Positions 3,001 to 24,000 of a DNA stretch of 64,000 nucleotides are shown here, in pieces. A program made the translations under genes and the position numbers. The stretch comes from Candidatus Omnitrophota bacterium. Its GTDB lineage: Bacteria > Omnitrophota > Gorgyraeia > VGKH01 > JBHPFN01. The notes below the pieces were generated by a model. The model was not told the origin of the DNA, searched no databases, and saw only the letters and a program-made list of their open reading frames with translations. Location of the stretch: the NCBI GenBank assembly GCA_042571725.1, contig JBHPFN010000005.1, forward strand, positions 1,196 to 65,195. The letters run 5' to 3'. Position 1 is the stretch's first letter. Each line of letters starts with the position of its first letter.

Positions 3001-6000
3001 GACACAATATAATTCACCTGAGGCGCTGCAGGCAGGGCTTGAGTTCTCAGTATTCCATCAGCTCAATCGCATTCTGAATCCGGAATTAGATCATGATCAG
3101 ATCCTTGAGCGCGACATCGCCTACTTCACAGAAGGATTAGAAAGAGTAGAAAAATATTTTTCAATGCTTACCAAAGATATTGGTAGTGTAAGGATGCATA
3201 AATTAGTTGAACGGCGAGGAATCAATGTCACAGATCCATTGCATCGACAAAATCTTCTCCTAAGATTGTTTGAATATAGAAATCCCCACAGGATCGATGT
3301 TGGGGATTACCACAGTCAACTGCGAGCCTCAATTCCAATACATATAATTCATGCGGTTTCAGTGCTCGGTGTGATTCTTAGCGATATCGATGGAACCTTT
3401 CTTGAAGAACCCACGGACGTGAAGCATTGTGCAAGCCTTGATTCCCGACCAGAAAGCGGCAAGGCCATGGACAGGCTCCTCTTAAGAGGTTTTTTCGTCG
3501 ATTTGATCACTGGCAACTGGTCTCGAAGAGCGTTCGGCAGAATTGTGCCGTATCTACGCAGGATTACTGTTGGGTCGCAAGCCCCTCAGGCAATAGAGAA
3601 TTTTTCTTATGCCGCAAACGGAGGATCTACACGATATCAATTTACTCACTACGGACTAGAAGAGGAAGACTTGGTGTTTAGAGCTGAGCAGGCAATCTTC
3701 CGGGAGGATGCAGAGGTTATCCTGGCAATCATTGATGAAGAAATTGAGAATTTTAGAAATGCATACGAACAAAATCCTCGGAGATGGCAAGCACGATATC
3801 CTGATTTTGTTTTCGAAGACGAACACGCAGAGTTTCAACCGCCTTTGGTAGAGCTTCGCGGATTACAGCAAGACGGTTCCATTACTCAGATCGCGGTGGT
3901 GTTGATTCCTTCTTGGTTTTTCTCAAGAGGACAGCTTACCGCTAAAAGTCCTGATGAGGAGCGCGAGCGATTTCTGCGCGAACTTAAGAGAAAGCTTGAC
4001 GCGCGGTTACCCGGCTGGAGAAGGCAATATAAGGTTAAGGCCGGAGGCGAGACATCTATCGACATCAATCGAGACGTCATCAGTAAGTGGAGAGCATTGT
4101 TCTATAAGATGAATCAACTTTCTCTATTTCTTAAGCAAGCGATTTATTTCGGCAATGAATTTCAGGCAGAAAGATCTACTTCCGAAAAATTGAGTCGTGG
4201 CGATACCGCGGTATTGAAAGGAAATATGTTTGCAGTTGCCGTAGACGATAGACAGGGTCAACCCGGATACGACGTTGATGAAATAGCCTTTATGGGAGGA
4301 CCCGGCATAGATCGAACCGTATACTGGTGGAATAAGATTTCTGATGTTTACGATAGAAACGTTGACGAGACAAGCGATGGACCCATTCGTCCTGCAATTG
4401 AAGTAGTAAAAGAAATGGTGCGCGCAAATGACAAAGAAGCCCGCGCAATAATTGCTGAATCCCGCGAAGGCGCTGGCAACGAAACACCTTCGATGTTCAC
4501 CGGCCTTAACATTTTCAGCGGAATAGATATTCTCAAACTACTTGGTCAGCTCTTCAGTTTACCGCTGGTATTAGGTGTGGCTTCCTCAGGAGGTGCAACA
4601 CCAGGCTCAAGGGGAAATCAGCGGTTCAGAGACGTGCAGAGAACACTGCGCAGAAGCATTTCACACCATAATCTTCCCTACGTAGACAGAAGTGACTTCA
4701 GAAATGATCCTCTGGGTATCTTAAGAAGCCGCATGGAGTTCTTCTTAAAGATCGACTCAGAACGACGCGCAGAACCATTGCGAGAATACCAGCGTTTTAT
4801 CGAACGACACCGCGAATTCAATAGAAGGTTATTAGGCGATGAAAGAGAAGAAGAATTCTACAATGCAGTGCAGTGGCTTCTCTCAGCACGATCAAAGAGT
4901 TCATACTTGCCTGAAGAAGTACTCGAGGTCCGCTATATCCAGATGTTTCACGCCAGAACCCTGGAAGACGAGATCTCCTGGCTCCAGCATGAGATGCCGG
5001 TATTAGACGAACATCTTGACCACGATGAACTATATGACGTAATCGACACTGCTATCAAGAAGTTACTTATTAAGGTAGGTATTATTGCCAACCGCTATGG
5101 TCCTTATTTAACTGATGCAGAGATCGATGAAAAAATAGAAGAGGACCTTGACCCGGTAAAGCAGGAACTGCGCATGATATTCGAACATGCGCTTATAGCA
5201 AGAGAAAATACACCCACAAGGATTGTTGAAGCGGGTGATACCACCGTACGCGACGGCGAGCAGTCTAACATCGGAACCACGGGTAAGATACGCCACCTGC
5301 TTCAAATCTTTAAGAAAGCCATTAAAACACTTATTGGTTTTCGTAAAGAGATCTGGGGCGGGGCTACCATTCAGAGTGTACTTTTGAATGGAGTACATAA
5401 GAATAAGCCGGAAGAGCCCTTTAACAACCTGCGCCGCTATGTAGAGCTTCTCAGTGATGAACTGCACGCGCTCGTTGATCCATTTGTACAAGCCACCCCA
5501 GGAGAAAGCGATATCAGTGAAGACGACCTTGCATTATTGTTCGATCGCTATGAAGTCAAAGAGGACAGACGCATCTTAACCAGAGAAGAATTAACCGATC
5601 TGCTATCCAAGTATCCTCGTATCGCCCCTGAGACCGCAATCGGTCAAAAGATTATCGCCCTCTACACCATCCGCCAAGAGATGCTCTTGCGCGGCCAGTA
5701 TATCGTAGGGCTCATTCCCTATCCTGACAGCTTCTTAGAACTGTTTGTAAAGGTTGCCTATAGAGACGGTATAGATACCTTCCGTATCTTTGACGCCTTT
5801 GATGATAACCGCAACATTGTTAAGGCAATTGAATACATCAGAAAGCTCAACGAGAAGGGTGCTACCGCATTCCTGCAGCCCTGCATTCACTACACCACCA
5901 ATTTCCCCAGAGGCAATGACGGGTTCGTTACCTTAGCCAAAGAGCTTATTGAGGCAAGCGGTGATGCGCTCGATGCGTTAGTAATCAAAGATGCCGGTGG

Positions 6001-9000
6001 CGTCTTAACACCACGAGCGGCGTATTATTTGATTAGGGCGTTACGCGAAAGCGGCATAACCGTACCGCTGTATCTGCATACCCACGATACACGCGGCAAC
6101 CGGCAGCTGGTCTTATTAGAGGCGATCCGCGCGAATGGTCCGGACTACCCGATTATTGTTGATGTTGCTATCGGAAAAGGCAATCTCTCCGCACCCTTTG
6201 CCCAGCCTGATATGAGAGACTTCTTCTCTCTTGTCGAGGGAACCAATTGGCAGGGAACCCTGGAGATAGACAAGGCCGCATTACTCGAAACCGAAGAACA
6301 GATCGACGAGATCATGCCTGACTATGTACGACCACCGGCGTTAGGCTGGCGCCTAAGAAAGAAGATCGCTGATGCAGGCCTACCGGGAGGCATGAAGACT
6401 AATTTTGATAGGCAGATCGCAGACAATCTACCGGGGGTCCAGAAGGCAATCAAAGAGAGATTCGGTATTACCCTCTATGAGGCTGAAGGTACATTAACTG
6501 TTGAGGGTACTGAGTTCGTAGAGGCCATAATGGATTTAGTCTATGAAGAGATACGCTGGGTTAAAAAGGATATGGGAGAGATCTCTCTGGTAACACCTAC
6601 AAGCCAATGGGTAGGAGATCAGGCATTTAAGAATGTTATGTATGTCTGGATGGGTAAGGGCTGGCTTGATCTAGAAACAACCGAAGAAGGTCGTCTGGTA
6701 CTTAAGAAAAACAATAGTTTCCCGCTTGAGAGAGTCAAGCAATACTATACCGCACCTCTGCACCCAGATCTTCAGAATTATCTGTTTATGTGGGCTCAGG
6801 ATGAGCATCTGCAGTGGTGGTATCCAGAGGTCGATCGCTCACTCGTCCTCAAGGCATTTGAACTGGTACTTAAAAATGACCATGACTTTGATCTGGAGGC
6901 GGTGAAACATGGTTTAGGTCTGAATGAGGCACACCCGGTTGCCGCAGTAGATATTGATATGATCAATCAGGCATTGGTAAACTATCAACCTATTAGAGAG
7001 GTCTTGGATAAGCGGGTAGTGGATGTTTCGGTGGTGAAGGTAAGAGACATCTTCCGACAGAAGGCTAATGAAGGGCTTTCCAGACACGACCCCAGATTTA
7101 CAGTAAAGTTTGAAGAGAGAGAAAAAGCGAATGCTGCATTCGGTTCCGGAGAATATCCGCGAGAGCTTATTATTGAATTTTCTTGGGGTGTAGAGGGGCT
7201 GAATCTGCCGCTTACCCCAGAGGAGCTACAGAGCCGCATCGGTGAATTCAAATTACGCTTCCCTACATTCGATGGCTCTGACGAACACTTATTACTCGCC
7301 GCACTCTTTACCCGACCTGACCAGACACCTAATCTGTTTAATAGTATGCAGGAGTGGCTTGATAGGCTTAGTCAGATAAGAGAGGCCAGAGCAGCACTAA
7401 TTGATATGGGTATTGACCCGGCGGTAATAGACCAAAAGATCCGTGAAGGCCTGCCAGAAGAAAGTTCCGACCCAGAGACCCCATCGATGTTCACCGCCAT
7501 TAATATTTTCGGTATGGGCTTAGGGATTGTGGCGGTTATTGCCGGAGCAATAGACTTTTTCTTCAATGGAAATGCATCTGCCGATACTCTCTTTGCAGCT
7601 GCATCGGTTGCGCCGCTATTGCCAGAAAGCAGAAAGCTTGTAAGTAAAGCGATAGAGAGAGATGGTGCACGATTACGATTCTTAGCTAGTCAGGAGACAG
7701 TTATCGCACTGCTTTCTACAAGAATCAAAACAAATGTCGATACAAACAGCATGTTTGCGCTGCTGCGCAACAATCCTTTGTTGCGTCGTACCTATATTCG
7801 CGTGTGGAACAGAGATATGGATCAGTTAAGAGAAGGTCTTACCGCAGATTCAATCGCGGGTGGTCGATTTGATCAAGAAACAAAGGAAAGAATTGCTAAG
7901 GAGTTCGGGGAGTGGCTTAAAGCAGTGATAAATTTGGCCCTAGAGTTCGAGCAAGGAGAATATGATCATACTGATCCTGCTTACTTTAGGCTGCTCGATC
8001 ATTTTGTTACCACTGCCCGCATCATATCGATGAATTTAACCGGCCAGCAAGACCAGGAAATCGCAGACTACTTAGGATATCCTTGGAAACATGTAGTCTA
8101 CTTCTATCAAAATATAAGAATCCATTTAAGAGAATTGCCTGTCGACAAGCTTGAATATTCTAAGCTTCAAGGATTAAGCCTGCTTGCTGAGAGAGGCATC
8201 ACTCAAAATGTTTTATCTGAAGAAACAAGAAGCGATATCGCATCGATGCTGGAGAGAAAAAGAGGCAGAGCTGCACCTGAAGCTGCAGCGTCAATGTTTA
8301 CCGGATTTCCATTGTTTGATATTTCCATTGTATTGAGCGCTCTCGCTGCTTTATTTATTTTTACCGAGAGGGAAGCGCTTCCTAAAGAATTACCTGCCTG
8401 CCGGCAGGCAGGGCGTATTAAATTACGTAATTTATCAAATATACCGTCGAGAAGATTAAAAACATTTGTGAATAATATGGGGTCGCTGCGGCCGACAGGC
8501 TCTGAGCAAGCCGATGATTCCGATTACCTCTCCGTGGCTGGTGGGGTTGGAATCAGCTTGGCCGCAGCACCCCCCTTAGTAAACAAGGGAGTGCGGCACT
8601 CACTATTTATCATGATGAGTGCAGCGGCCCTGACTTTATTCTTCCCAGACATAGCATTTGCTAAAGGGGAGATAGTACGCTCAGTTGAGGCAATCAGTGA
8701 AGGCCAAAGCTTCGTTTCTTTCCTCTATATAATGGCATCAATAGCGTTACTCTTTGGGTTGTCTGCGCTCTCAGGCCCGCCACGATGCATGACCACCGGC
8801 CAGCCTATCAGTAATTTACCCTTCCGCTGGGTTAACCGGATACGAGCGCTACAATTAGGAATGATTGCCCTTATCAACTATCTCTTCTTTGCGAATAATT
8901 GGCATACCGCTGGTGGCTTAGGCGACCCATTATGGATGTTCCATCCGGCTGATCCTGCGTCAATGTTCGGTGCGTTTAATTTAATGAGCGTAGTGCTTGT

Positions 9001-12000
9001 TGCGGCCTCGCTGGGAACGATGATCCCAATTGCCATTGATTATACACCGAGCCTCTTAAGAAAACTCACAAAACACCCATTGATTGAAACTCTTAGCCTG
9101 CCGATTCTCTTTATTGCCCTTATGGGGATCATCTTCTACAAAAGTCTCTTGCGCAGGTTTATTCCCATAGCCAAGACCACCGTTTTAGGCGTACTCATTG
9201 CCCTCAACTATCTATTCTTTGCCCATGGCGGGCACACCATTGAGCATGGAATGATACTACATCCATATCAGGATTGGAATGTGACTTACCCGCTTATCTT
9301 CGGTAAGTTTAATCTATTATCACTATGTATTGTCCTGCTCTCACTCATTGTTACGGGTGTGATGGTGGGAGAGGATATAGTCACCGCCCTTAAGAAACTC
9401 AAAAAACACCTTTCATTCAACACCTTCATCCTACTGGCTATCTTTGCTGCTCTTGCTGAATTCATATTCTCAGGCCAGGTGAATAATCCTGAGCTTTGCT
9501 TTGCCGCAGCACCAATTGGACCTAGAAAGTCGAAGGCGAAGGCAAAGAAGCCTTCACGTTCTACAGCTTCGTCATCCGGCGGCAGCAGGTCTTCGCGTCC
9601 CGCAAAAGTAGTGGCTAAGGTTGGGGTTACGATCAAAGTTGATACCTATGAGGTTACTGTGCGTCTTAAGCAAGGTAAATTAAGCGATGAAAACTTAGCT
9701 AATCTTGAGGAGGGATTGACATATCTTAGAAGGTTTTACCGCCATGACGCAGCGAAGATTAAAGAAGTAGTGGTGGTTAAAGGAGGGCGTGCGCCGCTTG
9801 AGGTTCAGGTAAAAAGCGGTAGATGGTCTGTGCCGGTGAGGGTCGAGGCATTTTCTGGACATCGCTACATTTTATCTTTGTGTTTAGGAAAACCGTTCTT
9901 GCGAAAACTAATTTATATCTATGCTCGTAAAAAAGAATATAAATATCGGCTTGGAGACTGTGTGTACCCTGCGGCGGTAGAGGTAGCCTTGATGTTTATG
10001 ATGGCATATCGTTTCCTCCTAGTTGACCCTCCTCAAGCGCACCAGGTTATTTTGGATTCTTTTAAAACTTCAGGATTCTCTCGATATCCCGTCAACAGAG
10101 GCATGGCTTCAATCTTAGAACAGGTAGAGAAAAAAGGCGGGTTCGGACTGATATTTGAAAGCCCTGAGATATTTAAGATGATACAAAGGATGTATCCCGG
10201 GGAAGATGTATCAGATAAAGACAGGATACGCAAGGATGCAAAAAGAATAGTGGTATTTATCCAGCAAGTTATTGATACAAGCAGAGAGACTGATATTGAG
10301 GCTATAAAGAAAGACTCTATCGCACCTCAAGATGTTGGAAAGCTTGTCTGGTGCGATGAGCGGGTGCGTGTCAGAAATCTGTACGTGCGCCAGTCAGAGA
10401 TATCCAGACACAGGGTAGAGGCAATGGTTGAGATGATGGATTTGCTTTCTGAGGTTACTAATGTCCCGGTGATAAAAGCCCCAATTGTCGTCTGGGGAAA
10501 TGACCCGGAGAAGAGACACCTCTGCTATTTAGTAGCCGGCAACACTACGGCAATGGCTGTTTTTGAATCAAATATAGCCTGGTGTCCTGTGCACATGGCC
10601 ATGCTTCCTGATGATTCTCCTACCATGAATCGTATACGTAATCCTCTCCATAGCGTATATGACGTCGATCGTGTAGATAGGATGAGGCTCGTAGGGAAAA
10701 GGTGGCGGAAAAAGAGGAGTTTAAGGCAGAGAAGTCAAGCTGAGAGGACAAGAAGTTTAAACAGAGCTACCAGAAAAAAAGGCCAAGCCAAGAGAAAAGG
10801 CTCAGGAGGGAAAGGTGATGTAAGCCTCTTTACCCTCTTTGGTTTCTTCCTGCCATTTACCAGCATTCTTACCTTACTTACCGCGCATCTTTTACCGTTT
10901 GTACTTGGCGTTTCACAATCTACAGATCAATCTTTGGAATTATCTCTCGGTAATCTTTTGATGCTTCAGGTCCATGCGCGAACCGAAGGTGCAAAGAAAA
11001 ATAAGAGAGACAAGGTAAAAAGCGGAGGATTTAAAGCAATTGAGGGACGACTAGAGGAATGGAAAGACCTTGGATTTAGCTGGGTGTATCTTATGGGCAT
11101 TATGCCGTTGAGTAAATTTTCAAGAAAAACAAACCGTGGAGAACGGGGAAGCCGCGATCGAAGAAATAATTGTTACCGGTTAAAGAAATGGGGAAAATCA
11201 GTAATCGTAGTCAACCAAGGGTGGCCGGGCGATCCCGAAAATGACATTGGTTCAATCTTTGCAATTCCTGAGCTGACTGCCGTAGGCAGCGATTTGGGCT
11301 CGCTCGATGATTTCAGAAAGGTAGTAGAAAAGGCGCATGACCCGGAATTGGATATGAAGATTATTATTGATTTCGTGGGCAACCATACTGCAATTGATCA
11401 CCCGTGGGTTTTAGAGCGCACAGAGTATTATAAGCACAGAGTTCTCTCGAGAGGAGAAGAAGATCGAAGTGATTTAGAGCTCCTGAGCAATAATCCTGGA
11501 TATTTCGTTGTGCATTCAAAGTCTTTAGGTAAAAGAGTGCTTGTTCAGCACGGTAGCGATCCTTCTTGTCCGCCACCGTGGTTAGATACCGCTGAATTAG
11601 ATTACAATAATCCTGAAGTCATACGAGAAATGATTGGCGTGCTGAAATTCTGGGCAGCACTTGGCGTGGATGGGGTACGCTGCGATTTGGTTACGCTTGT
11701 ACCTAAGGATTTTTGGGAACAGGCTATTGCAGAGATTAAGGCTGAATATCCTCGATTTACCTTTATTGCAGAGCACTATGGCCCAGAGGGAAGATATGTG
11801 AGGTTAGGGTTTGATTTTGAATATGATAAAACCCTCTATGAGCGCCTGCTGAAAGAAAGTTATCCAGAGCCGGGTATTAGAGATTGGCTGAATTTCTTGG
11901 GTAGGGCAAGAGCCTATCTTGACGGGTCAGTGCGCTTTCCGGGAAATCACGACGATGGTTGGTGGATGGCCGGAGCGCGCGCACGAGCCAATGCGCTTAT

Positions 12001-15000
12001 CGCCAGCACAATTCCGGGGATGTCAATGATGCACCTTGATCAGTTAGAGGGTTACGCGCGTCAGGGGATTACGAGGATTGTAAGAAGCGAAGCATCAGAT
12101 GAAGCACAAGCTGCATTTATGCAAAGAATTGCGCGTATTGCGAGCGACGAGATATTTAGCTACGGTAAGTTTGACGTCTTAGAGACAGACGATGGTAATT
12201 CAACCTTTATCGGGTATACGCTTCCCCATAAGGGGAGGCGGGTAGTAGTTGCGGTAAATTATTCCGATGGCTTTGGTGCGGCTAAGTTTTCAACGTTTCC
12301 TCCAAGGTTCGTTAACTCAGCATTTGCTGGTAAATATATAGTATTGAGAGATGTATTGAATGGAAAAGTGTATGTGAGAAACGCTAAAGAGATTATCACA
12401 GAAGGAATTTATGTCGAGCGCGGTGGTTTTGAGAGTCATATATTCTTTATCGAACCAATTTCTGATGAAGCCGGTACGTCATTGTCTGACAAATTTGGGT
12501 TAGACGCTATAAATCAATCAGTATTCGAAAGGGCTCTTGCAGAAGGCGCAAGCTCTGAAGCGAGTATGTTTGTGTTGCCTGATTTCTTAGGAGTTTCGTC
12601 TTTATATAATCAAATGGGGCCGCTGTGGCAAGGCATCAGAAAAATTCTTGTTTTACCTCTTCCGTGGCTGGTGGGGAGCAAGAATACTGCCACAGCGGCC
12701 CTTCGTTCGTTTACCTCTTCCGTGCCTGCCTGCCGCCTGCCTGCCGGTCAGGCAGGGCAGGCAGGGCTGGTGGGAACGATGGCCGCAGCGGCCCTATTAT
12801 TTACTCCGGGCATCGCTGAAGCAAATGAATTAGATCAATCTACATTTATTCTTGACATGCCTGGTGTTTCCCTAGAGATTACCTTAGTGCCGCTTCTCTT
12901 GCTTGCTATCGGTTTATTACTACTCGTAGGTGCTCTTCGGGAATTCAGAGGTCAGCTAAGATATCATGCAGCCCGAATTGACTTTTGGATATGGCGCCAC
13001 CTATTTCATACCGCAGGAGTTAATTTCTTAAGGCAAGAGAAAAAATTACAGAGCCTCGCAAGAGCATGGGGGCTCACAGATATTGATATCGTTCGATTAT
13101 ATGTAGAGACCTTGCCTGAGCAGTTGCCTGACTATTATGAATTTGACCTAAGAGTTGCATTGCAGGATTTATATGAACATTTTGAAGAAATTCCTCAATA
13201 TTTATTCGGTAAATACCGAATGTTGGGCGAAATGGGAGGCGAGGTGAGTCTGGCCGGAGAAATCAGTCGCTTAGCATTCCAGGGCGTTAGCACGAAATAC
13301 ACAACAGCAGAGGCAATGGCGTGTGATTTCTTAGCTCGCTATCCTCAACTTCAGAATTATATTCCTAAAGATTTTATGCGCCGAGCCCTGAAGCAATACC
13401 CAGGCATCGAGGAAATTCCCGGAGTCTTGCGGCATTGTTTGCGTTCTGCGCTTATTGCTTTGGAATTTACAAAGCTTATGGATTTGCGACCTCGGTATTT
13501 CAGAGAGGCTCTAGTAAAAGCATTCTTTTTACACGACCTAGGAAAGGCGCACGAGAGCCTAAGAGGTACCGCAGCCTCACCGATAATGGTAGAAGAACTT
13601 GAATATGCTAGAGCAAATCAGGAGCATCCACATAAAACGATCGCGATGCTTAAGAAAAAGGTTCGATTAAGTAGCAATGTGAAAGCGGCAAAACTTATTA
13701 CTTATTTAATCGAGCATCACGAAGAAACACCTTCGTGGAAAGTAGGACACGCAAAGGATGTACGAGCATATGCTGCGCGCATCTTCTCTTTAATCGATAC
13801 CCTCGATTCCTTGCGTGATTGCCGAAGACCGCATATGCGAAGAGGAGGTCATTTCCTTTCAGTAGATGATTTGCTCGATATTCACTACAGACTTCTTTTA
13901 AGAGACGGCTCAATCGATAGAGAGATGTTCGAAGCGATTAGGGAGCTTTGCTACCGTGAGCCGGTGAGATCCTTATTAAGAGAAACTGAGCCCTATGTCA
14001 GCCTTAGTAACGTGGTGATGTTGGCAACGGGTGTTGAAGAGATGGCTCAGCGTTGCATTCCTTACTCTCGGCCCGCCACGGGAACGGCTATTCGATTACT
14101 TACCCGTCCGCTTGCAGAATTTAGCACGCGCTTTCGCCGTGACGGAAACTTCCCTGACAGTATCCACTACAGAAAAGGCCGCACCGGCCAGGTTGTTAAA
14201 GCGACGAGACTTGATCCTCTTCTATTAAGGAAGATGGGGGTCAGTATTTGTAGGGGAGAACTAGCTGATGACCGTGAACAGGCAGAGTATTATCAGTTAC
14301 GCAGAGAGTTTACCGCATTTGCCATCGAGCGGCGTTGCAGCAATCCTGATCAGCCTGAGAATGTAATTGAGATAGAAGAGCTTTTAGGCCAGAGTCAAGA
14401 GGAGCGAGAGGTATTTATTACTTGTTTAGTAGAGTACCAAAGCATTTTAGAGCATTATGCTCCTGAAAGGGCAAAGGCCTTGGCACTTTTGTATAAGCCC
14501 CTCTTTTTCCCCGATGAAGAAATGGAAGCAGAGTTGTTCTGGGATAACTTCGGCCCGCGAAAGAGATTAATCGTAGAGCCGCTCTCAAGAGAGGCATTGC
14601 GCGGTCATCTACGAGCAGTACCGACATCTGATACGACCTGTTCAGGCAAGACTACCACAGCACTGAGTCAAGTGCGGCAGCGTCCTGACTTGTTTGGTTT
14701 AATCGTAATCAAAAATGGCAAACCCGAACTGAGCCCGTTCTTTATGGATAACTTCTTTAAGAATAAAATGAAAGCGGGAACACCAAAAACGCCGGAGAAC
14801 GAAAACGAATCCTTCCCGGATATATACGGCCGGCACGATATTGATTCTCCGGATGCCTACCGGTGGGATTTGATTGAAGAGGCACTCACCAATTTATTCT
14901 TATACGGCAGGGCAATGATTCCATCAGACTATGATTTTGTACATAAGCATCGCGGCGAACTTATAGAGGCAACGCTCGAGCCGAATAAGGCCTTGCCCAT

Positions 15001-18000
15001 TGACGGTATTTATGCGGGACATCCGAGGATGCGAGCAATCCTTGAGAGAATTAAACATAGATACGAAACTGAACATTATTCTCCGATGCGAGATGCATTG
15101 ATGAAAATGAAGTCTAGCAACGGGGCACCGTTTAAACCTCGCTTCGAATACAAGTCTGTGTTGCTCGTTTGTGAACCTAGAATCGGGATTCTGCAGCATT
15201 TGTTCGGATGGCTTTTACCTCATATCGATGATGCCAGGCTTGTACGCAGGATCGTAAGAAAAAGAGGTTCTACCGCATTTAATACTATGGATATATGGTT
15301 TGATCCTGATCCTTTTGCAGGAATTTTAGTCATTGAGAAAAAGGACGTGGAACCCCACAGAAAGTATGCAGACATAGTAGTTAATACTCTGGTCAAGAGA
15401 GAGATCCCTCGTCAGAAAGAAAAGCTCTGGCCAGAGCTTGATGAAGCAGAGCGTGATTTCGCAGTGGAGCTTACACTAAGAGGATACTTTCCGCACGCGC
15501 AAGACATACGCGATGCGATTGACCGGCTGCGCATGAAAGCCGAATCCCGCGGCTGGCATGACGATTTGCGCATCTGGCTTATTGGCATACGCAATAAATT
15601 CACACGCGTAAAGGTCTTTGGCGTCGTTATGCTTGCCACCCTCCTTTTTGCTACCCCCGCCATTGCCGATGACGCAACAACTACCTTCAACTTGAAACCT
15701 TTCATAGGGATTTTGATGGCCGCAGGAACTATCGTTTTGATGCTAATCCCGAGATACCAAAGTATAATAAGATCTTTCGACAGAGGTTGGCGAGCTACAC
15801 GATTAATCAGCGAATTTCGTGCCTGCAGGCTTCACATAGTAAAAGATAGCTCAGGCGGCATAGAAGTAGTTGATGACGCAGGAATGCCACGATTTATCTC
15901 TGCGGTTGAGCTACTTGTGGAAATGAAACATGCTGGAAGATTTGAGGTTTTAACTAAGCTGCGTGTTTTCTGTAACGTATTAGATGAGTATCCTGCAGGA
16001 AGCCTTCCGCATCAATGGCATACCAGACTCTCAAATGCAATAGCAGCTATTGAGGAGGATATTGTATCTGAATCTATACTTCCTGGCTCAACAGATGGTG
16101 GCGAGGCAGGCTCTAAGGGCTCACCAGCAAACTTCCTTATGCCGTTTATTGTAATTGTCAGTAGCCTGTTGTTTGTCACCCCCGTCTTTGCAGAGACCGG
16201 CATAGAGAAACTCTACCATTCAATCATAGCTCAACTTTCAACATTTATTTCTTATCATGCTGATGCCCATTTCTGGTTATCAGTGCTTACATGGACTGGA
16301 ATGCTTACAGCGAGCACTATACTATTGGCAATATTGATGGGCATCGCAAGAGGTCTAGAAGAATGCACTGGGATTACGGTATTCAAATATCAAATGGAAG
16401 GATTGGGAAGTGATCCTGGTATTATTGGTACCATGTGGAGTGGTTTGTGGTTTTTAGGATTTTGGGCACTTATTATATTGAAGGAAGACAACGAAACTTT
16501 ATTTCATTGGTGTATTGCGCTTCCATTCTTTACGGTTATAGCTGGCGGCGGTATTGTGTTTCTGATAGCAGCAGGAACATGTGTTTTTATTGGCTTTGCA
16601 TTTATGATAGTTGCGAGCCTGCCGTGTTCTTTAACGGTAATCATGTATCGCGTAGGACGCAAGATTATATCTTTTGTTGTGGATGATTTTATTCCATTTG
16701 TTGAGGACGACTTAATTCCAATATTTTTAATCATAGGTAACGGAATATTCGTTCTTGCCTTGCGAATATTCGTTCCTTCGGCTTGGCGTCAAAAGAGAGC
16801 TGAAAAAGCCATTGCGCAAATTAAGAAGTTTGATAAGAACTGGATTGTAGTTTATGGTGATTCCAAAGATGGGTTCTCGGTAATGAGTGAGGGAGGAGCG
16901 CCAAGATTCGTCCACGAGGCAGAAATTCTTGCAAAATTCAGGCATCCTGGAAGATTTGATGTGTTACCGAAATTGCGAACGGTGCTTGCGGTACTGCCGC
17001 CTGAGGTAAGAAATACCGGGACAAGGCAGGAAGCTGGTATTAATCCTTTGGGAACGAAAGTGTATAGCGTGCATACCAGGCTTTCTAGGGCAATAGCTAC
17101 TATTGAGGCTGATTCAGATTCGGCAGATTCTAGAGCAGCCCTTTTTGGAGCTCCTCAAGGCGAATTGAATTTAGTAGAGTTAGGCTTATTGTCTCCTGAA
17201 CACAGGGCAGCAGGTGGCATATCCGGTGAGGGTAGACATAGAATCCCTAAGCATCTCGCGCAACGCATCCTTCCTATCCTTCAAGCTTACCTTAGAACCC
17301 CCCGGACCTCAGAAGACCTACCTCAACTTAAACAGGAAATTAGAGAAATATTGCTTAGCTACTGGACCATGGTTGAAGGAAAGAAGCTTCCGCAGACCAT
17401 GCTAGGCATTTGCAACCTACCTGAAGTTGGTCCGGTATTAGCAGAATTTGATACCTTAAAAGCCTTTGTCACGGATAAATTCTATCCTAGATCAGTTATT
17501 GTTGAATTTACTTCTATCGGCATCTGTGCCAGCGATAAGGAAAATATAGTGAATCCTTTTGGTGTTGACCATCCCATGGCTGGTGTGCCTTTAGGCCACG
17601 AAGCAGGAGGTATTGTTGTAGGTGTTGGTCCGGGAGCGGATAAGTCTTTATTAGGAAAATATGTAGCCTTAGAATCGCACACTCCTCACAATTGGAGCAG
17701 ACCATGGCATAGATCTAAAACATACGGGATTATCGGGTATGACCCGCTGGGAGGACCAAAGGTAGCAGGCACCTGGAGACAGTTTGGCTGTTTCCCTGAA
17801 GCAAATGTCTATGTGGTTTCGGATGAACTGAGAAGTAATTTAAGCGACAGGTTGTCTCTGCTTGAGCCCAATGGCAATGCGGTATATACCGTGCTTGAGA
17901 CCGCCAATCTCCTTAAGGAAAAAAGGATTGATCCTCAAGGCGCTCACGGTATTATCGTCGGATTAGGCCCTCAGGGACGGATGATGCTGTATATGGCTCA

Positions 18001-21000
18001 GCTTATGGGCATAAATGTAATCGGCGCTGATAAGTTCGAGGCAAGTGTGAGAAAGTGCATCGACGCCGGTATCGGGGATGAGAAAACAGTATTGAGTACA
18101 GAAAAGCCTGGCTGGCAAGATAGAATTCAAGAAGTCTTTGGCGAGGACAAAAAAGCTCAGTTTATACTCGATGCCTGTGGAGCCACAGGGGTAATTAAGG
18201 ATATGGAAGGACTTCTTGAAAATAATGGTTTGTTCCTCTTGTTTGGCTTGATGGATAAAGAGCAGGGAATTCCTGATACTAGTAAGTCACTAGGCGAGTT
18301 TGTCTTGAAGCAACATAAGAAGCTTCGTGCTCGCGTTAAAGGAAGAACTATTGATATCATCGGCCTTTGCGGTAGATCGGATGAATCGTGGCACTGGGTT
18401 GTAGAGGAGCTGAGGAAAACGGATAGTAAGTTTGCAGAACTTTTACTTTCCGGAGTGTATGATTTAGGCTCTATTGAAGGGTTTGTGAGAACGCTCTTTG
18501 CATACAATGATTACAGTAGGGATGCTTTTGAGTCTCTATTTGGAAAAGGCAAGATTACTATGCTTCCATTCTCCGCAGCGTTAGTCGAGGCCTTCCGGAA
18601 TAACGATGCGAATGAGGTTGCTAAAATAGTATTCCCTCAAGAAATTCCTTTCAGTAGAAGATTTGACATTGTGGATGTGCAAGACCAATTCCCTCGAGCC
18701 CCTGTGCTTAGAGTTTTCGCTCCTATAGAAAAAGCCGATAGCAAAATAGGTGTAGCGAGTTCGCTGTTGGGAGCGATATCAACATTTACATCTTTATTCG
18801 GTTTTGGTATGCCGCTGGGTGTAGCAGCAGATGCAGGGGGCAGGAATATCGAAGTATCCGCAGAGCTTGCGATTAGCCGTTATAAAGCACTGCTCGAAGG
18901 TCAGGCTGGAGAGGTTCTTTTAGAAGCAAAGCTCAGATTGTTTTACCAAACGTGGCGCGGTGTTGGCCTTACACCTCCTGCAGGGATACGCTATGTCTTC
19001 TGGGCACTGTTAGGAGATAGAAATCATCCTATGGCAGAGATGGTATTGCGGCATCATCCTCATTTTGATTCGTTGTCAGTAAGAGAAAAATGCGATGCGA
19101 TCGATGCATTAGTAGCCGCAGAACAATTGAACTACGGTTCAATAGAAGAAATTAGACTTCTAAGTTTGGTTATCAGAGGCTTTGCTGCTGATGCGGCCGA
19201 AGGAGAAGTAGCGAACTTTGTTTCAATCGGTTTTGGCAGCATGCTTCCTTTAGGCAAGATTTTTGGATTGATTGCATTCTTGCTTCTTGCACTAACCCCG
19301 ATCGCACAAGCTGATTCCTTGCCGGAAAACAATATCGCCACACAACAAACTAGCACTGATACAAGCGCAACATCTACTCGATCATACACGCGGGTTATCC
19401 ATCCACAGTCAGATCAAGAATATTATTTCTATGAAATACGCAATAAGATAGAACAGAAAGTAGCAGAGGCATACGAGGCGCGTAGGACAAGAGCGTATTG
19501 GGAGAATGTAGAATTAGCAGCTTTGCTTTGGATTGAGCATGTAATCAAGCAGAGAGAATTAGATAATATACTGGTAAGCCTTGTGGATGCGCGTGTACTC
19601 ACCGAAGAATTTTTAGCCTCCCCGGATGCAGAGCGTATTTTGTCTAAACAAGAAGAATTTTTAAGAAGTCGAGAAGCATACGTGGCTATGGAGAGGGCAG
19701 GAGACGTTGACAGCCTCGCACAGAGACGGTTATCCAGAACCGTCCGTCTCAGAGTTCATGATTCTACCGTAGTGAAGCCGCAGGAAATCGATAGCTTAGC
19801 AGCGGTAGCCGATAGTATTCTTGATACGTATCTGGCTGCTACCTGGGTATATCTCGAAGCAGGCGATCCTGAGAAGAAAAAGCAAGAGTTTCTTGCTGAG
19901 CTAATATCCTCAGCGTGTGAATTTTACGGTCGGCCTCTGCCGCCGGCAGATAAAGGATACACACCCGTTGAGCGGATTAAGACTCAAGAAGTAGACGATA
20001 AAAATGATGCTCAACAACCAGAGCCGCAGCCTCGCAACAATCCGCCAATTCCCCCTAAATCCGGCATGGTAGGTTTGTTGTTTGGTAGAATGCTGTCTTC
20101 CTTGCGGCGTAGAAAAAGAGTTTCTAAGCGCGACAGTCAAGTAGCTGAGCCTAAGCAGGTCGCTAAAGGAGCACCACATTTTATTTTAGCCAAAAAGGAA
20201 GCGCTTCCGTCGGGAAGCAGCATTTTTAATCTGAAAGTTGCAATAAGTTTATTGACTTTAGGAATAACAGGACTATTATATAAATTAGGGCTGCTGTGGT
20301 ATGATCTTACGCAGATCATAACTTCGATTACCTCTTCCGTGGCTGGTGGGGTTGAAGTTATTATGACCACAGCAGCCCTATTTGTTTTGCCTATCGCATC
20401 TGAGGTTTCTGACCTCTTCCGTGCCTGCCTGCCGGCAGGCAGGGCTGGTGGGGTTAAAATCACTATAGTTGCAGCGGCCCTCTATTCTTTCTTAATACCT
20501 CTAATAGGGACGTTTCTGACTGCAATCGGAAAACTGTCCCTCGCGGGGACACACTTAGCTTTGATGTCAGAAACGTCCCTAAGAGAGGTAGTAACCTTTT
20601 CTTTCCTCACCCCTGGCCTTGTCTTAGGGGTTTCCGCAGGAAACGATATTTCCGCAAACCATTCAATGGTAACAGTCACTTCACTTTCCGAATTAAGGGA
20701 ACTGTTTGTATCAGGCCGCATCGGTAGACCCGAATGGAAAAGGCTGCTTGATCGCAATCCCCACGGCAAGGAAATTGTGGCAGGGATTCTTGTTGAACTC
20801 ACCAGAAGAGTTACCAAAAAAGAAGATGAACCGTTAGAATTCGCTGACTTTATGCAACTGCGTGACCCTCATTTTAGAGATGCATGGGTAGGCGGACACA
20901 ACCTTTCCGGTTTGCGAGGGGTATTCGACAAAAAATCAGCCGGCAGCGGCAAACCATCGATCGTATTCGGGCTTGAATACACCGGTCTTATAGCGGCGCA

Positions 21001-24000
21001 AAAATCCGCAAAAGATATCTCCAGGCTTGATCAGCTGACTGATCTATTAGCCCGCGGTGTCTACAAGCAGGTTCCCTGGCACATATTATTAGAAGAAAAT
21101 CTTCAACATGGCAAGAGTATCACTGTTCAGATTATCCGCCGTATCGCCTTAGAGGATAACTTAAGAGATCTGGTTATGTTAGATGAAAAAACACACCTTA
21201 GAAAAAAACCAAGAGGTTTCTTAAACGGAGAAACCGCAATTGGTCTTCATAGATACTATCGTAGGCACCATCCCAAGAGAAAAGAAAACGCAGGCAAGAA
21301 GGTAACTCTATTTATGTTAGAAGATCTTGAATTGATCCAATGGATGCCGTCTTTGCGGCAGATCACCTGTTTTGATCAATTGAATAAACTCTTAGCCACC
21401 GGCAGGCTCCAGCAGATTAGCTGGGAAGAGTTGCTGGAGCACAATCCTCACGGTAAAAGGATCATCAGCGAGATAATCGGATTAATTCCCGGTGTCACCA
21501 TTACTGAAACCAAAGAAGTAGTAGGATTAAGCCGTCAGGGCGTAAACGAGCATCTAGACCTATTGGGTAATGAAGCAATCGGTGGTCTGTACGAATATTT
21601 CCAGAGAAAATTCGCGGATAGAGACACTTCTTCCAGGACAGAAGCGCTCATCTTGGGTGCTGTGGCATTTATTCCTACCGTAGCACTTTTGGAAGAAAAT
21701 GCCTGGGATGTTTCAAAGACTGCTCAAGGTTTAGGTATGGATAGAAAGACATTGCGCAATAGGCTTGCACGCTTCGGTTTTGATTCCAAAGAAGAAAGAA
21801 GAAGATTCAGGCAGCAGGTATTAGAACAGGAAAGACCTAGATTGCTAGAAGCGCTTGAGATGGCTGGTTGGAACGCAAGGGCTGCAGCTGAAAGTTTAAG
21901 TATCACCAGAGATGATCTGCGGGAAAAACTGAGGAAGTTAGGTATCGATACAACCCAAGGAAGAGAGGAATATAAAAAGCGTGAGTTGATCAGAAGAAAG
22001 CCGGAGATACTTGCGGTTGTTACAGCCTATCGTTGGAAAATAAGGCCCAGCGCAGGAGCATTGCGAATGGGACGCGTGCGGCTAAGAGAGATCCTCACTG
22101 AGGTCTACGGTTATGACATTGAGGCAGAAAAGGCAAAGATACAAACAGCCTTTACACAGATTAGAAAGGTTATTGCCCGTCTGTATCGAAGCGATTACCG
22201 AAACGGAGCAGTGCTTGATCTGCGCGGTGTATCTGCTGAGACAGAGATTATTTTAGTCGGTGATTTGCACACCCAGCTACACAACCTCGAGGCGATTTTA
22301 GCACATAGAAAGGTACGTACTGTCGGCGGCGTTGAAGAGCTCGATGTTGAGAATATCGAAAAGATACGCGCTAAGAAGGCGGCCCTGGTCATCTTAGGTG
22401 ATGCCGTCAACGCTGATCCTGCAGGCTGTGAGATCGCGAATAATGATGAATCAGAATTTCTTGAGCTTGCCAAAGAAACAGAGCCTTCAGTCAAGATGAT
22501 GCACTTCATCTTTGATTTAATCATTGAGAATCCGGATAATGTTTTCTATGTATTAGGAAACCATGATTATCTGACATATACTCATTACCGTTCAACGCAC
22601 CACAGACAAAGGATATTCCAGGGTATTGCATATCGAGAAAAGCTTACGGAGTTATTCGGAGAAGAGTATGTCATGCTCTATGAGAGGTTTATCAGCGTAA
22701 GTCCTATACTTTTGGTGGCTGATGGATTAGTTGCAACACACGGCGGACCTGTGGTTTCTGCCCGTTCATTAAAAGCGATTGAGCACGTGCCTACAGATGA
22801 TGAAACTCATTCTTTCGTTGCTGAGGCCATATGGGGACGCTATGATACGCAAGGAATAATGTCGCATGGATACAGAGGACCTCAGGTAGTAGAATTCTTA
22901 AGCAACGTTATCGGCCAACCTGATGCGCTGTTTGTGGTAGCGCACTCGCCTCGTCTGATATATCCGGGAGAATTCTGGGCACAGCTTTTCTCCTGCCACT
23001 ATGTGATCTTTGCAGGCAGAAAGCAGAGCGGCTATGCATCATTTGCAAACAATGAGATTGAATTTGTCCCGGTTACCGCACCTGATAGAAGTGGTAGCGT
23101 TACTCCGAGCGCTTCGATGTTCACCGCATTCGATATAGGGATTGCAGCGCTACTCTTTGGCATTGCCTCGGGGGCTGCGAGCGTTATTAAATATCTTTCC
23201 CAAAGAAAACTCCGCGCATACATCAAGAAAAGACTTTCCTTATTAGAAGATTATCCCGCGCCTTTATCCGAACAAGGAAAAGCTGCGGTCGCAAGAATCA
23301 CACGCGATATACAGCTCGGACGCATCTGGTTTATTTCCAAGCGTCAATTAGCCAGACATCAGCTCGTGCTTAGCGATCCTCCCTTTAGCTGGTTCGAGAA
23401 ATATTTCACAGATTTTGATGCAATCGAAGCAATGCGAGTAGCACACCGCAGGGCAGAGTTGGTAAAAGTAGCGGTGACAGAAGGATGTTCTGTGCAATGC
23501 GATTATTGCTCAGCTGATCCTGGGCCGCCTGATTCTATGCCAGATCCGTGGGTAGCTGAAATAATGGATGCATTGGCAGAATATAAAGCGGAGCTTGAGA
23601 ATAGTGTGCGGGAGAGAATGAGGCGAGCAGACTTTTCCGTTGAGCAAAACTATTTTGCCTTTATCTTCGGCTGGCACGACAATAATCCTGTGGTAGATCG
23701 CCACGATCCCCTTTACGATACGGATTACGCTGATATATGTGAGCGTCTCATAGAAACACTGGGTCAAGAGGTGTTTAATCTATCAACCTCAGGCTGGGAG
23801 ATGGGTTCTATCGGCGAGAAGGTAATACGGAAGTTAGGAAAACTAAGCAAGAAATACGGGATTAGAGTTTCTATGCTTTTTCATATTAATACCGAAAGCG
23901 GCTTATTTAATCGGCTTGGCCCTGAAGAATATACTCGTCAGATGACCGCTGCGTTTAATCTGGCAGCTGAGATGTTTGGGGTATCCAAGATTTCCTTTGC

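What the first reader, a model, noticed from the sequence alone, without database searches (positions are those of the whole stretch)
8479..20480. 13-14 bp inverted repeats bracket the motif, with compensatory substitutions between copies and an alternative pairing partner
In copy B, GGGCCGCTGTGGCA (12617-12630) pairs with TGCCACAGCGGCCC (12688-12701), 14/14 bp. In copy C, GGGCTGCTGTGGT (20288-20300) pairs with ACCACAGCAGCCC (20366-20378), 13/13 bp. In copy A, GGGGTCGCTGCGGCC (8479-8493) pairs with GGCCGCAGCACCCC (8560-8573), 14 bp with one bulged C. Where the copies differ, both arms change together. C:G in B becomes T:A in C at two stem positions, one through a synonymous GCG to GCA change. 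T:A in B becomes C:G in A. That covariation is the classic sign of selection on base pairing. The 57-66 nt loop always carries the 22-nt motif. A downstream box GCAGCGGCCC (8621, 12785, 20471) can pair with the same 5' arm using G-U wobbles, which would give mutually exclusive helices. This looks like a structured RNA or DNA element of about 90-180 nt living inside coding sequence. I do not recognise it as any known ribozyme, riboswitch or tRNA-like class.
Basis: partly seen in the sequence, partly recalled or inferred. Interest (0 to 1): 0.85.

Follow-up and report, generated by a model that had tools for sequence, protein, structure and literature searches.

The report
Conserved RNA hairpin inside giant genes
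The three repeats are copies of a previously undescribed folded RNA hairpin with a nearly invariant 22-base tip. It is written in-frame into the giant genes of Omnitrophota bacteria and gives a first handle on how such enormous genes are expressed.

Summary
The whole window is one stop-free ORF (21,333 codons), an Omnitrophota-type giant gene.

Copies A, B and C share one architecture:
- an outer stem P1 (GGG…/…CCC);
- a variable inner stem P2;
- a cap made by the 22-nt motif.

Scanning public genomes and metagenomes gave about 50 copies in at least 24 species. Nearly all lie on the sense strand of giant ORFs.

Evidence that this is an RNA structure:
- All 18 P1 and P2 pairs covary, and 90.5% of cells are paired against 35-54% in slid controls.
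- G·U outnumbers A·C by 70 to 18.
- The motif is read in all three frames.
- Synonymous recoding destroys the fold (z -5.3 to -6.3).

Peptide conservation therefore cannot explain it. Rfam and the literature hold no match.

The flanks look like an intrinsic terminator: A-rich upstream, then a 10-nt T-rich tract downstream. My best reading is a cis-acting transcript "punctuation" hairpin (pause or terminator type) whose cap docks a conserved factor. That mechanism is inferred, not shown.

Embedded small-RNA cassettes and a mobile in-frame palindrome remain live rivals.

The parts
2..64000 (+). Host: one stop-free reading frame (21,333 codons), open at both window ends. It is an Omnitrophota-type giant gene with scattered enzyme domains.
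   Evidence: no stop in frame 2; the other frames are closed. Pfam hits. Matches published descriptions of giant ORFs.
8479..8573 (+). Element A. P1 8479-8493/8560-8573 (one bulged C). Side hairpin P1a 8498-8512. P2 8515-8522/8548-8555. Cap 8526-8547 (motif with a 1-nt deletion).
   Evidence: (30.6 bits, E 5e-4).
8621..8630 (+). Downstream GCAGCGGCCC box after A. In the MFE fold it sits in a separate capless hairpin and is not needed by element A.
12617..12701 (+). Element B. P1 12617-12630/12688-12701 (14 of 14). P2 12644-12652/12677-12685. Cap 12655-12676.
   Evidence: (47.3 bits, E 1.4e-7).
12702..12794 (+). Element B2, tandem to B. Cap 5' half 12713-12724. A 41-nt palindromic insert at 12725-12765. 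Cap 3' half 12766-12775.
20288..20378 (+). Element C. P1 20288-20300/20366-20378 (13 of 13). Side hairpin P1a 20303-20317. P2 20318-20326/20353-20361. Cap 20330-20352.
   Evidence: (35.6 bits, E 4e-5).
20412..20480 (+). Element C2, tandem to C. Cap 5' half 20412-20423. A 20-nt palindrome at 20424-20443. Cap 3' half 20444-20453. Box 20471-20480.
   Evidence: (weak hit 20412-20454).
20492..20594 (+). Capless strong hairpin C3, directly after C2, with a perfect 14-bp stem GGGACGTTTCTGAC/GTCAGAAACGTCCC. It is part of the structure-rich junction, but its membership of the family is not shown.
   Evidence: I1, the top inverted repeat of the window; z -7.9.
8393..8412 (.). Lone copy of the palindrome CCTGCCTGCCGGCAGGCAGG, 67 nt upstream of element A.
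46563..46582 (.). Lone copy of the same palindrome, next to a hydrophobic segment and with no cap nearby.
8447..8476 (+). AT-rich, sigma-70-like match (TCGAGA-18-AATAAT) ending 3 nt before P1 of A. It is part of the A/T-rich 5' flank typical of the family.
20252..20279 (+). Best sigma-70-like match in 8-21 kb (TTGACT-16-TATTAT), ending 9 nt before P1 of C. B has a perfect TATAAT 6 nt before its P1.

Best explanation
What it is (shown): a previously undescribed, conserved structured RNA module of 57-95 nt, carried on the sense strand of Omnitrophota giant ORFs and, in a few genomes, between genes of an operon.

Anatomy, from the outside in:
- an A/T-rich 5' flank;
- P1 of 7-15 bp, usually GGG.../...CCC, often GYUGCGGC/GCCGCAGC;
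- an asymmetric internal loop on the 5' side, sometimes holding a small extra hairpin;
- P2 of 6-9 bp of free sequence;
- a cap, 5'-UA CCUC UU CC GUGGCU GG U GGGG-3', whose core CCGUGGCUGGUGG is invariant;
- a T-rich tract of about 10 nt directly after P1.

How it most likely works (inferred): it acts in cis on the nascent giant transcript as a pause or terminator-type 'punctuation' hairpin.
1. The cap and P2 fold first.
2. P1 closes only when its 3' arm leaves RNA polymerase, just ahead of the U-rich tract. That is the geometry of an intrinsic terminator or a hairpin-dependent pause.
3. In a reading frame without stop codons, a closely following ribosome covers the 5' arm and prevents closure, so transcription continues.
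4. If translation lags, the hairpin closes and polymerase pauses or terminates.

The invariant cap would be the docking site for a conserved partner, such as the polymerase exit channel, a Nus-type factor or an RNA-binding protein. That partner would tune this decision or mark the resulting 3' end.

The existence, fold, strand, context and flank composition are shown. The effect on transcription, the role of the ribosome and the cap-binding partner are inferred.
For: Structure:
- The same three-helix architecture appears in every copy folded alone. RNAalifold recovers it de novo.
- On 37 copies aligned to the model, 90.5% of cells are paired against 35-54% when partners are slid. All 11 P1 and all 7 P2 pairs change on both sides. 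No shuffle out of 500 reaches the observed values.

RNA on the sense strand:
- G·U 70 against A·C 18 in P1 and P2, including a U·G kept in 18 copies.
- Every ORF-embedded copy is sense to a frame open across its whole locus. Yet 36 of 39 elements would be readable antisense in at least one frame.

Not a peptide effect:
- All three frames are used, 18/7/4.
- Synonymous recoding gives z -5.3 to -6.3.

Terminator-like flanks (29 family representatives):
- Positions -10..-1 are 78-82% A+T.
- Positions +1..+5 are 52% T and +6..+10 are 45% T, returning to background by +11.
- A T-run follows P1 in 17 of 43 copies against 14% background.
- In L010 the tool flags the outer stem plus TTTTAT as terminator-like.

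Junction position:
- Intergenic copies lie between same-strand genes: GGDEF or sigma70_r4 ORFs upstream, PilZ and/or Opp-type permease operon downstream, in three lineages.

Cap under constraint:
- The core is unchanged in copies found by the model rather than by exact match.
- It is also unchanged in B2 and C2, although their loops carry inserts and their stems have diverged.

Breadth: about 24 species-level genomes plus 12 metagenome loci, and none in viral contigs.
Against: - No transcript data exist, so termination, pausing and factor binding are all untested.
- Only about 40% of copies have a clear T-run, and in some copies T-rich codons simply encode hydrophobic residues.
- Ordinary terminators do not need an invariant 22-nt cap, and no partner was identified.
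- The cap helix (P3) never varies, so it has no covariation support.
- Cap invariance is partly built in, because most copies were ascertained by an exact 20-mer.
- Elements cluster rather than being spaced along the gene: 5 caps in 12 kb of the window, then none for 44 kb.
- A -10-like box upstream (15 of 43 against 8%) fits an internal promoter as well as an A-tract.
- Near-identical elements in unrelated flanks and nested copies point to some DNA-level mobility.
Confidence: 0.4

Rival explanations
1. Embedded small-RNA gene cassettes. Each element is its own transcription unit: a -10 box, a +1 at the GGG of P1, and the hairpin plus U-tail as terminator. It yields a 60-100-nt hairpin RNA whose invariant cap acts in trans by binding a protein or pairing with a target. 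The cassettes sit in giant ORFs because those ORFs occupy much of the genome, so they must stay stop-free.
For: - A -10-like hexamer (A2, T6, at least 5 of 6) ends 2-14 nt before P1 in 15 of 43 copies against 8% background.
- In the window, the two best sigma-70-like matches in 13 kb end 9 nt before C and 3 nt before A, and B has a perfect TATAAT 6 nt upstream.
- In the GGGCAGG family the conserved unit includes GGTATAATAATATAAAA upstream and the T-run downstream, while all other flanks are unrelated.
- L010 has a promoter-like site about 10 nt upstream and a terminator-like tail.
- Paired 5'-GGG and CCC-3' ends are typical of stable small RNAs (my own knowledge).
Against: - The -35 matches are poor.
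- Two thirds of copies lack a -10-like box.
- The A/T-rich 5' flank is equally what a terminator A-tract looks like.
- Independent genes should tolerate the antisense orientation, yet none is antisense.
- Promoter consensus for this phylum is unknown.
Confidence: 0.22
2. A mobile, in-frame palindromic DNA element, comparable to Rickettsia palindromic elements, PARCELs, Correia elements or REPINs. It spreads within and between giant genes. The hairpin would reflect the transposition mechanism or template-switch repair, not an RNA function.
For: - Near-identical elements occur in unrelated flanks: L004 against L046, stems 92% identical with flanks at baseline.
- Homology between giant ORFs is limited to about 35-40 aa around the element.
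- Whole elements are nested in the cap of another with CGTG duplicated on both sides (L127, L089).
- The palindrome is inserted at the same cap position in B2 and C2.
- Other small hairpin repeats occur in the same ORF.
- Most elements are stop-free in 2-3 sense frames.
Against: - P2 stems and internal loops of A, B and C are unrelated although they lie in one gene.
- The conserved part is the cap, not the termini.
- The cap is identical across at least 24 species, unlike elements that co-evolve with their transposase.
- G·U far exceeds A·C and all copies are sense.
- There are only a few copies per genome.
- There is no general target duplication beyond what AT-rich flanks give by chance.
- No hit in 2.9 million viral contigs.
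- Mobility and an RNA function are not exclusive.
Confidence: 0.18
3. A ligand- or protein-responsive RNA switch, or an RNA processing site (self-cleaving or nuclease-targeted). It would cut or regulate the giant transcript at module junctions.
For: - An invariant internal-loop and cap region sits on a variable scaffold.
- A, C and L009 have three-way-junction variants.
- Tandem pairs are frequent: B/B2, C/C2, and L046 with two copies about 50 nt apart.
- Intergenic copies sit between c-di-GMP genes, GGDEF upstream and PilZ downstream.
Against: - The conserved region is small and mostly base-paired.
- There is no resemblance to any Rfam riboswitch or ribozyme.
- Cleavage of a stop-less ORF would create non-stop mRNAs.
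- The alternative-pairing 'switch' is not general.
Confidence: 0.1
4. A single-stranded-DNA recombination site, like an integron attC site, marking module boundaries at which giant genes gain or shuffle segments.
For: - Structure is conserved while stem sequence is free.
- It is strand-specific.
- It is located at junctions of unrelated modules.
- There is a fixed insertion point in the cap.
Against: - There are no attC-type R''/R' core sites at the stem base; P1 starts GGG and ends CCC.
- The conserved part is apical.
- No recombinase is linked.
- No kb-scale split caps were found.
- The terminator-like U-tract is unexplained by this model.
Confidence: 0.06
5. A by-product of conserved peptides (GxLW ... 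TAAL) or chance complementarity.
For: The arms encode G(P/L)LW and TAAL in B and C.
Against: - The motif is read in three frames.
- Flanking peptides are unrelated across loci.
- Synonymous recodes fold far worse, with 0 of 300 reaching the real energy.
- Covariation is seen across 37 copies.
Confidence: 0.01

Closest known systems
Intrinsic (Rho-independent) terminators and attenuator pause hairpins (trp/his leaders)
   Same: A GC-rich stem closed at its base, followed at once by a U-rich tract of about 10 nt and preceded by an A-rich tract. It is co-directional with the transcript. A translating ribosome could prevent closure (established for leader pause hairpins; my own knowledge).
   Different: It is much longer (57-95 nt, three helices) and carries an invariant 22-nt cap across a phylum. 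It sits inside a translated giant ORF in any frame. Only about 40% of copies have a clear T-run. The function is untested.
Processive antitermination RNAs (phage HK022 put, Bacillus EAR)
   Same: A cis-acting folded RNA within very long transcription units, in the sense orientation only. Sequence conservation could reflect contact with RNA polymerase.
   Different: There is no sequence or structural similarity and no Rfam hit. Copies cluster instead of sitting near the start of the unit. The U-tract suggests termination or pausing rather than antitermination.
Rickettsia palindromic elements / PARCELs (in-frame palindromic repeats in coding sequence)
   Same: Hairpin-forming nucleotide repeats written in-frame into ORFs, found in unrelated proteins and readable in several frames.
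   Different: In those elements the whole sequence is conserved within a genome and they spread as DNA. Here only the cap (and partly P1) is conserved while the stems covary. Orientation is always sense and G·U is favoured.
Neisseria Correia elements / enterobacterial REP-BIME
   Same: Small hairpin repeats that can carry -10-like boxes, act as terminators or as mRNA stabilisers or processing sites, and are sometimes nested.
   Different: Those are high-copy, mostly intergenic, found in both orientations, with conserved terminal repeats and target duplications. Here copy number is low, the element is intragenic, and no general duplication is seen.
Bacterial SECIS elements
   Same: A hairpin inside an ORF on the sense strand, with a conserved apical part read by a trans factor and a free lower stem.
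   Different: There is no in-frame UGA anywhere in the window. The loop sequence differs. The element is also found between genes.
Integron attC sites
   Same: Conserved fold with free stem sequence, strand specificity, and a position at boundaries between unrelated coding modules.
   Different: There are no R''/R' boxes, the conserved part is apical rather than basal, and no integrase context exists.

Membership tests
Any Rfam 15 family | Score at or above the family's gathering threshold | tested here: not met
   No match in the window or in 20 loci carrying the element. In permissive mode only miRNA-precursor-like hairpin hits appear, at 19-26 bits against thresholds of 57-107.
tRNA / tmRNA | Cloverleaf or tmRNA detected by ARAGORN | tested here: not met
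   0 genes in the window.
Intrinsic terminator | GC-rich hairpin followed within 0-3 nt by a U-rich tract | tested here: inconclusive
   Positions +1..+10 are 45-52% T against 27% background. A T-run is present in 17 of 43 copies against 14%. More than half of the copies lack a clear run.
Intrinsic terminator | Transcripts end at the U-tract | not testable with these tools
   No transcript data are available.
Intrinsic terminator | Short simple stem-loop without conserved loop sequence | tested here: not met
   The element has three helices over 57-95 nt and an invariant cap.
Bacterial SECIS | In-frame UGA about 11 nt upstream of the hairpin | tested here: not met
   There is no stop codon of any kind in the reading frame.
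Integron attC | R'' (RYYYAAC) and R' (GTTRRRY) core sites at the base of the stem | tested here: not met
   P1 begins GGG... and ends ...CCC in most copies.
Integron attC | Adjacent integron integrase and cassette array | not tested
   Only 8-kb loci were held. None of the Pfam scans of neighbours showed an integrase.
MITE / REPIN / Correia-type mobile hairpin repeat | Conserved terminal inverted repeats shared by the copies of a genome | tested here: not met
   The P1 arms of A, B and C are similar, but the P2 stems and loops are unrelated. Across genomes the P1 sequences differ completely while the cap is constant.
MITE / REPIN / Correia-type mobile hairpin repeat | Target-site duplication flanking each copy | tested here: inconclusive
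   Flanking direct repeats are only slightly above background in AT-rich flanks (mean 4.4 against 3.6 nt). CGTG is duplicated in two nested cases.
MITE / REPIN / Correia-type mobile hairpin repeat | Both orientations relative to host genes | tested here: not met
   All ORF-embedded copies are sense, although antisense would be readable for 36 of 39.
Rickettsia palindromic elements / PARCEL | In-frame presence in unrelated ORFs | tested here: met
Rickettsia palindromic elements / PARCEL | Full-length sequence similarity among copies | tested here: not met
   Only the cap and part of P1 are shared.
Processive antitermination RNA (put / EAR) | Makes RNA polymerase resistant to downstream terminators | not testable with these tools
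   This needs in vitro or in vivo transcription assays. There is no Rfam match to EAR.
Omnitrophota giant gene ('Archaeovorin'-type), as host | ORF of tens of kb with many TM segments and scattered divergent enzyme domains | tested here: met
   More than 64 kb is open. There are about 25 hydrophobic clusters. Domains include radical SAM, HD and kinases. The source organism itself was not identified.

The most novel reading that the evidence does not exclude
The cap hairpin is a dedicated RNA 'punctuation' system of giant genes. It would be a phylum-wide signal, read by the core transcription or translation machinery, that keeps RNA polymerase and the lead ribosome in step, or releases defined sub-transcripts or small RNAs, within reading frames of up to hundreds of kilobases. 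Giant ORFs would then be operon-like arrays whose former intergenic signals survive in translated form.
Probability: 0.25. Interest if true: 0.9.

Novelty: new variant of a known kind. Interest (0 to 1): 0.72.

Why it matters
How bacteria transcribe and translate genes of 60-440 kb is an open question. The published surveys of Omnitrophota giant ORFs found no RNA domains in them (PMC10066038) and treat them purely as proteins.

This is the first nucleotide-level signal tied to these genes. It is a conserved, covarying RNA hairpin embedded in-frame, always sense, present in at least 24 species, and also found at operon junctions.

It yields direct experiments:
- map RNA ends at the element;
- mutate the cap and P1;
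- pull down the cap's partner.

It also supplies a covariance model for mapping module boundaries in giant genes.

Finally, it is a caution for annotation. Part of the predicted 'transmembrane' or linker peptide next to these sites may be a translation of RNA structure.

Tried and rejected
- Rfam at gathering and permissive thresholds, and ARAGORN: nothing.
- Peptide explanation: rejected by frame usage and synonymous recoding.
- Alternative 3' partner or switch: a repeated 3' box in only 2 of 38 copies.
- Internal translation start after the element: a strict SD+ATG within 160 nt in 4 of 47 copies against 1.6% background, so not general.
- Recoding or frameshift: the other frames are not unusually open around A, C and the palindromes. 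Around B they are longer (69 and 80 aa) but within the background 90th-99th percentile.
- '(G/S)SSP' peptides flanking elements in other loci: the codons vary and the motif is absent from the window, so it is not a nucleotide signal.
- TM association: true for all four window sites but absent in many other loci.
- Orthologous-site comparison: the 700 aa around B have no homolog at E<=1e-10. Giant ORFs from other loci share almost no homology with the window.
- kb-scale insertions splitting caps: none.
- Gapped motif matches outside the PVC group: chance, as the inserts are not palindromic and the model gives only weak hits.
- Viral origin: 0 hits.
- Target-site duplications: inconclusive.
- The palindrome and the 29-nt hairpin repeat: not found in other loci.
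- Resemblances of the cap recalled from memory (E. coli Chi GCTGGTGG, the 16S 3' end, RNase P RNA, T-box UGGN): they could not be tested and are not relied on.

Full report
**1. The host**

The window is not ordinary gene-dense DNA. Frame 2 of the + strand has no stop codon from nt 2 to nt 64000 (21,333 codons). Every other frame is closed within a few hundred codons.

The translation has a normal amino-acid composition. It carries scattered, divergent enzyme and regulatory domains: alpha-amylase, HD, alcohol dehydrogenase, Metallophos, B12-binding plus radical SAM, PfkB, proline dehydrogenase and PALP. About 25 clusters of hydrophobic segments are spread along it.

This matches the published giant ORFs of Omnitrophota: bioRxiv 10.1101/2023.11.21.568195, bioRxiv 10.64898/2026.06.07.730766 and PMC10066038. 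The source organism was not identified. A 700-aa segment has no homolog at E<=1e-10 among 5.8 billion protein clusters.

**2. The observation**

The arms rank among the top inverted repeats of the window.

In each copy a second stem (P2) flanks the motif. The motif forms a small cap helix: CCUC/GGGG, a 2x1 internal loop, CC/GG and a GUGGCU loop.

The motif is read as SVAGGV in A and C but as LPWLVG in B. It is therefore conserved as nucleotides, not as peptide.

Two more caps exist, B2 and C2. Each is split at CCGTG^GCTGG by a CCTGCC.../...GGCAGG palindrome. That palindrome also occurs alone at 8393 and 46563.

**3. More copies**

A scan of one genome per species for the motif gave gapless matches almost only in MAGs labelled Omnitrophota (15) or Planctomycetia/Planctomycetales (9). 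A metagenome scan added 12 loci. A viral scan gave none. Matches with a gap in other phyla are chance: their inserts are not palindromic and the model gives only weak hits there.

In all real copies the motif caps a hairpin whose stems differ between genomes but stay complementary.

I built a covariance model from 16 copies. It found the three window copies (E 1.4e-7 to 5e-4), a weak hit on C2, 37 copies in the PVC loci and 12 in the metagenome loci. That count includes copies lacking the exact 20-mer.

**4. Is the pairing selected, and on which strand?**

On the 37-copy alignment:
- 90.5% of cells form standard pairs, against 35-54% with the partners slid by 1-3 columns.
- All 11 P1 pairs and all 7 P2 pairs show changes on both sides.
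- No shuffle out of 500 reaches any of the observed measures.
- RNAalifold predicts the same helices without being told.

One caveat is that the alignment was fitted to the model.

The cap helix never varies, so covariation says nothing about it.

In P1 and P2, G·U pairs outnumber A·C by 70 to 18. A U·G is kept in 18 copies. Equal numbers would be expected if the complementarity were a double-strand or template-switch effect. The folded strand is therefore the sense strand, most simply as RNA.

The coding controls agree:
- All three frames run through the cap, 18/7/4.
- Recoding A, B and C with synonymous codons gives mean energies of -31, -22 and -22 kcal/mol, against the real -54, -44 and -46 (z -5.3 to -6.3; 0 of 300).

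**5. Context**

In about 25 of 30 exact-match copies, a stop-free frame on the same strand spans the whole 8-kb locus. The opposite strand is closed. No copy is antisense to its ORF, although 36 of 39 elements would be readable antisense.

The flanking proteins are unrelated. Other giant ORFs share almost nothing with the window. Between several loci, homology is limited to about 35-40 aa spanning the element. Some elements are nearly identical in unrelated flanks: for L004 and L046 the stems are 92% identical.

Copies that are not in giant ORFs lie between same-strand genes. In three lineages a GGDEF or sigma70_r4 ORF lies upstream and a PilZ and/or Opp-type ABC permease operon lies downstream.

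In the window, all four sites (A, B, C and the lone palindrome at 46563) adjoin hydrophobic clusters. This does not hold in many other loci.

**6. Flanks**

Using one representative per family:
- The 10 nt before P1 are 78-82% A+T and A-rich.
- The 10 nt after P1 are 45-52% T.
- Composition is back to background by +11.

T-runs follow P1 in 17 of 43 copies against 14% background. -10-like hexamers precede it in 15 of 43 against 8%.

In the window, the two best sigma-70-like matches in 13 kb end 9 nt before C and 3 nt before A. B has a perfect TATAAT 6 nt upstream.

In the GGGCAGG family the conserved unit runs from about 35-50 nt upstream (…GGTATAATAATATAAAA) to the T-run.

An A-tract, a GC hairpin and a U-tract together form the architecture of an intrinsic terminator. 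The same data are also compatible with a small transcription unit.

**7. The 'alternative partner'**

A repeated 3' box downstream occurs only in window copies B and C (2 of 38). There it is the 3' arm of the tandem elements B2 and C2. In B the minimum-energy fold uses all arms in one branched structure. In A and C the box is not used by the element. I find no support for a general two-state switch.

**8. Signs of DNA-level dynamics**

- In L127 and L089 a whole element sits inside the cap of another, with CGTG on both sides of the insert.
- L006 and L119 show an older nested pair.
- L118 has an extra hairpin.
- In B2 and C2 a palindrome sits at the same point of the cap.

The cap halves of B2 and C2 are still perfect, although the P2 stems of the B and C composites have diverged completely. 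The constraint therefore lies on the helical and internal-loop part of the cap, and loop expansion is tolerated.

There is no general target duplication and there are no kb-scale split caps.

The ORF also holds other genome-specific mini-hairpin repeats, plus a very strong capless hairpin next to C2 (z -7.9).

**9. Interpretation**

Shown: a conserved, covarying, sense-strand RNA structure with a near-invariant cap. It is specific to Omnitrophota-type genomes, embedded in-frame in giant ORFs and found at operon junctions. It is absent from Rfam and from the searched literature (the motif string appears in no paper).

Inferred, as the best-supported mechanism (about 0.4): a cis-acting pause or terminator-type punctuation hairpin. 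Closure of its P1 ahead of a U-tract would depend on whether a ribosome follows polymerase closely. The cap would dock a conserved partner.

Rivals:
- embedded small-RNA cassettes (0.22);
- a mobile in-frame palindromic element (0.18), which is not exclusive with an RNA function;
- a switch or processing site (0.10);
- an attC-like recombination site (0.06);
- a peptide by-product (refuted).

The main caveat is ascertainment. Most copies were found through an exact 20-mer. Cap invariance is therefore only independently supported by the 7-9 copies found by the model, in which CCGTGGCTGGTGG is unchanged.

**10. Verdict**

The finding is real and its core interpretation is right. It is a new RNA family of unknown function in an unusual setting. 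Its kind, a cis-acting structured hairpin with terminator-like flanks, is known. What is new is its invariant cap, its in-frame residence in the largest bacterial genes and its phylum-wide spread.

Noticed in passing
window 2-64000 (+): The entire 64-kb window is a single stop-free reading frame (21,333 codons), open at both ends. It carries a mixed set of metabolic and regulatory domains. A 700-aa segment has no homolog at E<=1e-10 in 5.8 billion protein clusters.
   Followed up: partly
window 8393-8412, 20424-20443, 46563-46582; expanded form 12725-12765: An exact 20-nt perfect palindrome, CCTGCCTGCCGGCAGGCAGG, occurs three times, plus a 41-nt expanded version. Two copies sit exactly in the loop of a cap. 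It is read in two frames, and its length is not a multiple of three. It is absent from all 127 other loci.
   Followed up: partly
window 20492-20594: The strongest inverted repeat of the window is a capless hairpin with a perfect 14-bp stem (-51.5 kcal/mol, z -7.9), directly after C2. The C junction therefore carries three consecutive strong hairpins over about 310 nt.
   Followed up: partly
window 29446-29474 and 32467-32495: An exact 29-nt direct repeat, TTCCGGCGGCATAAGTATGCCGCTTGGGG, that is itself a hairpin, translated SGGISMPLG in both places. It is not found in other loci.
   Followed up: partly
window 26991-27049 and 47362-47420: A 60-nt inverted pair (82% identical) containing a CCCTAAAGGG mini-hairpin. 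One copy lies in each orientation within the same ORF, unlike the cap hairpin, which is always sense.
   Followed up: no
window 51337-51469: A cluster of GGTGCTGCACTG-like units and hairpins with two possible 3' partners for one 5' arm (z -4.6), next to a hydrophobic segment.
   Followed up: no
window 42168-42432 and 42468-42726: A tandem repeat of about 265 nt at 71% identity, encoding a repeated helical peptide (EKATAIQEIREAL... / QKAAAIREIRETL...).
   Followed up: no
cap, e.g. window 12667-12674: The cap contains GCTGGTGG, identical to the E. coli Chi octamer. The window has 7 copies on the + strand and 1 on the - strand, and 5 of the 7 are caps. This is probably coincidence, given the low copy number.
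   Followed up: partly
L006 4962-5025, L119 932-994, L020 1591-1654, L075, L120, L124, L127: Copies outside giant ORFs lie upstream of PilZ and/or OppB/C-type ABC permease genes and downstream of GGDEF or sigma70_r4 ORFs, in three lineages. This is a possible link to c-di-GMP signalling or to the transporter loci reported next to giant genes.
   Followed up: partly
L127 about 2210-2353, L089 3127-3230, L006/L119, L118 1000-1090: Nested architecture: a complete element sits inside the cap of another, with CGTG duplicated on both sides in L127 and L089. L118 has an extra hairpin inserted between P2 and P1.
   Followed up: partly
L086, L093, L046, L027, L105 (20-30 aa either side of the cap): A (G/S)SSP peptide motif, encoded with varied codons, flanks many elements in other giant ORFs. 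It is not enriched in the window (2 SSP against 3.5 expected).
   Followed up: partly
3' arm and tail of the elements, e.g. window 12688-12712 and 20366-20395; L004, L009, L046, L058, L082: The GC-rich 3' arm plus the T-rich tail translates to TAAL/AAAL followed by F/L/I-rich residues. Some hydrophobic or 'TM' calls next to elements may therefore be by-products of the RNA element.
   Followed up: no
L088 1184-1248, L123, L101: The exact 20-mer also occurs by chance in high-GC ordinary genes, where it encodes NLFRGWWG. These score up to 37 bits with the model from the cap alone. Low-scoring model hits therefore need the stems checked.
   Followed up: yes
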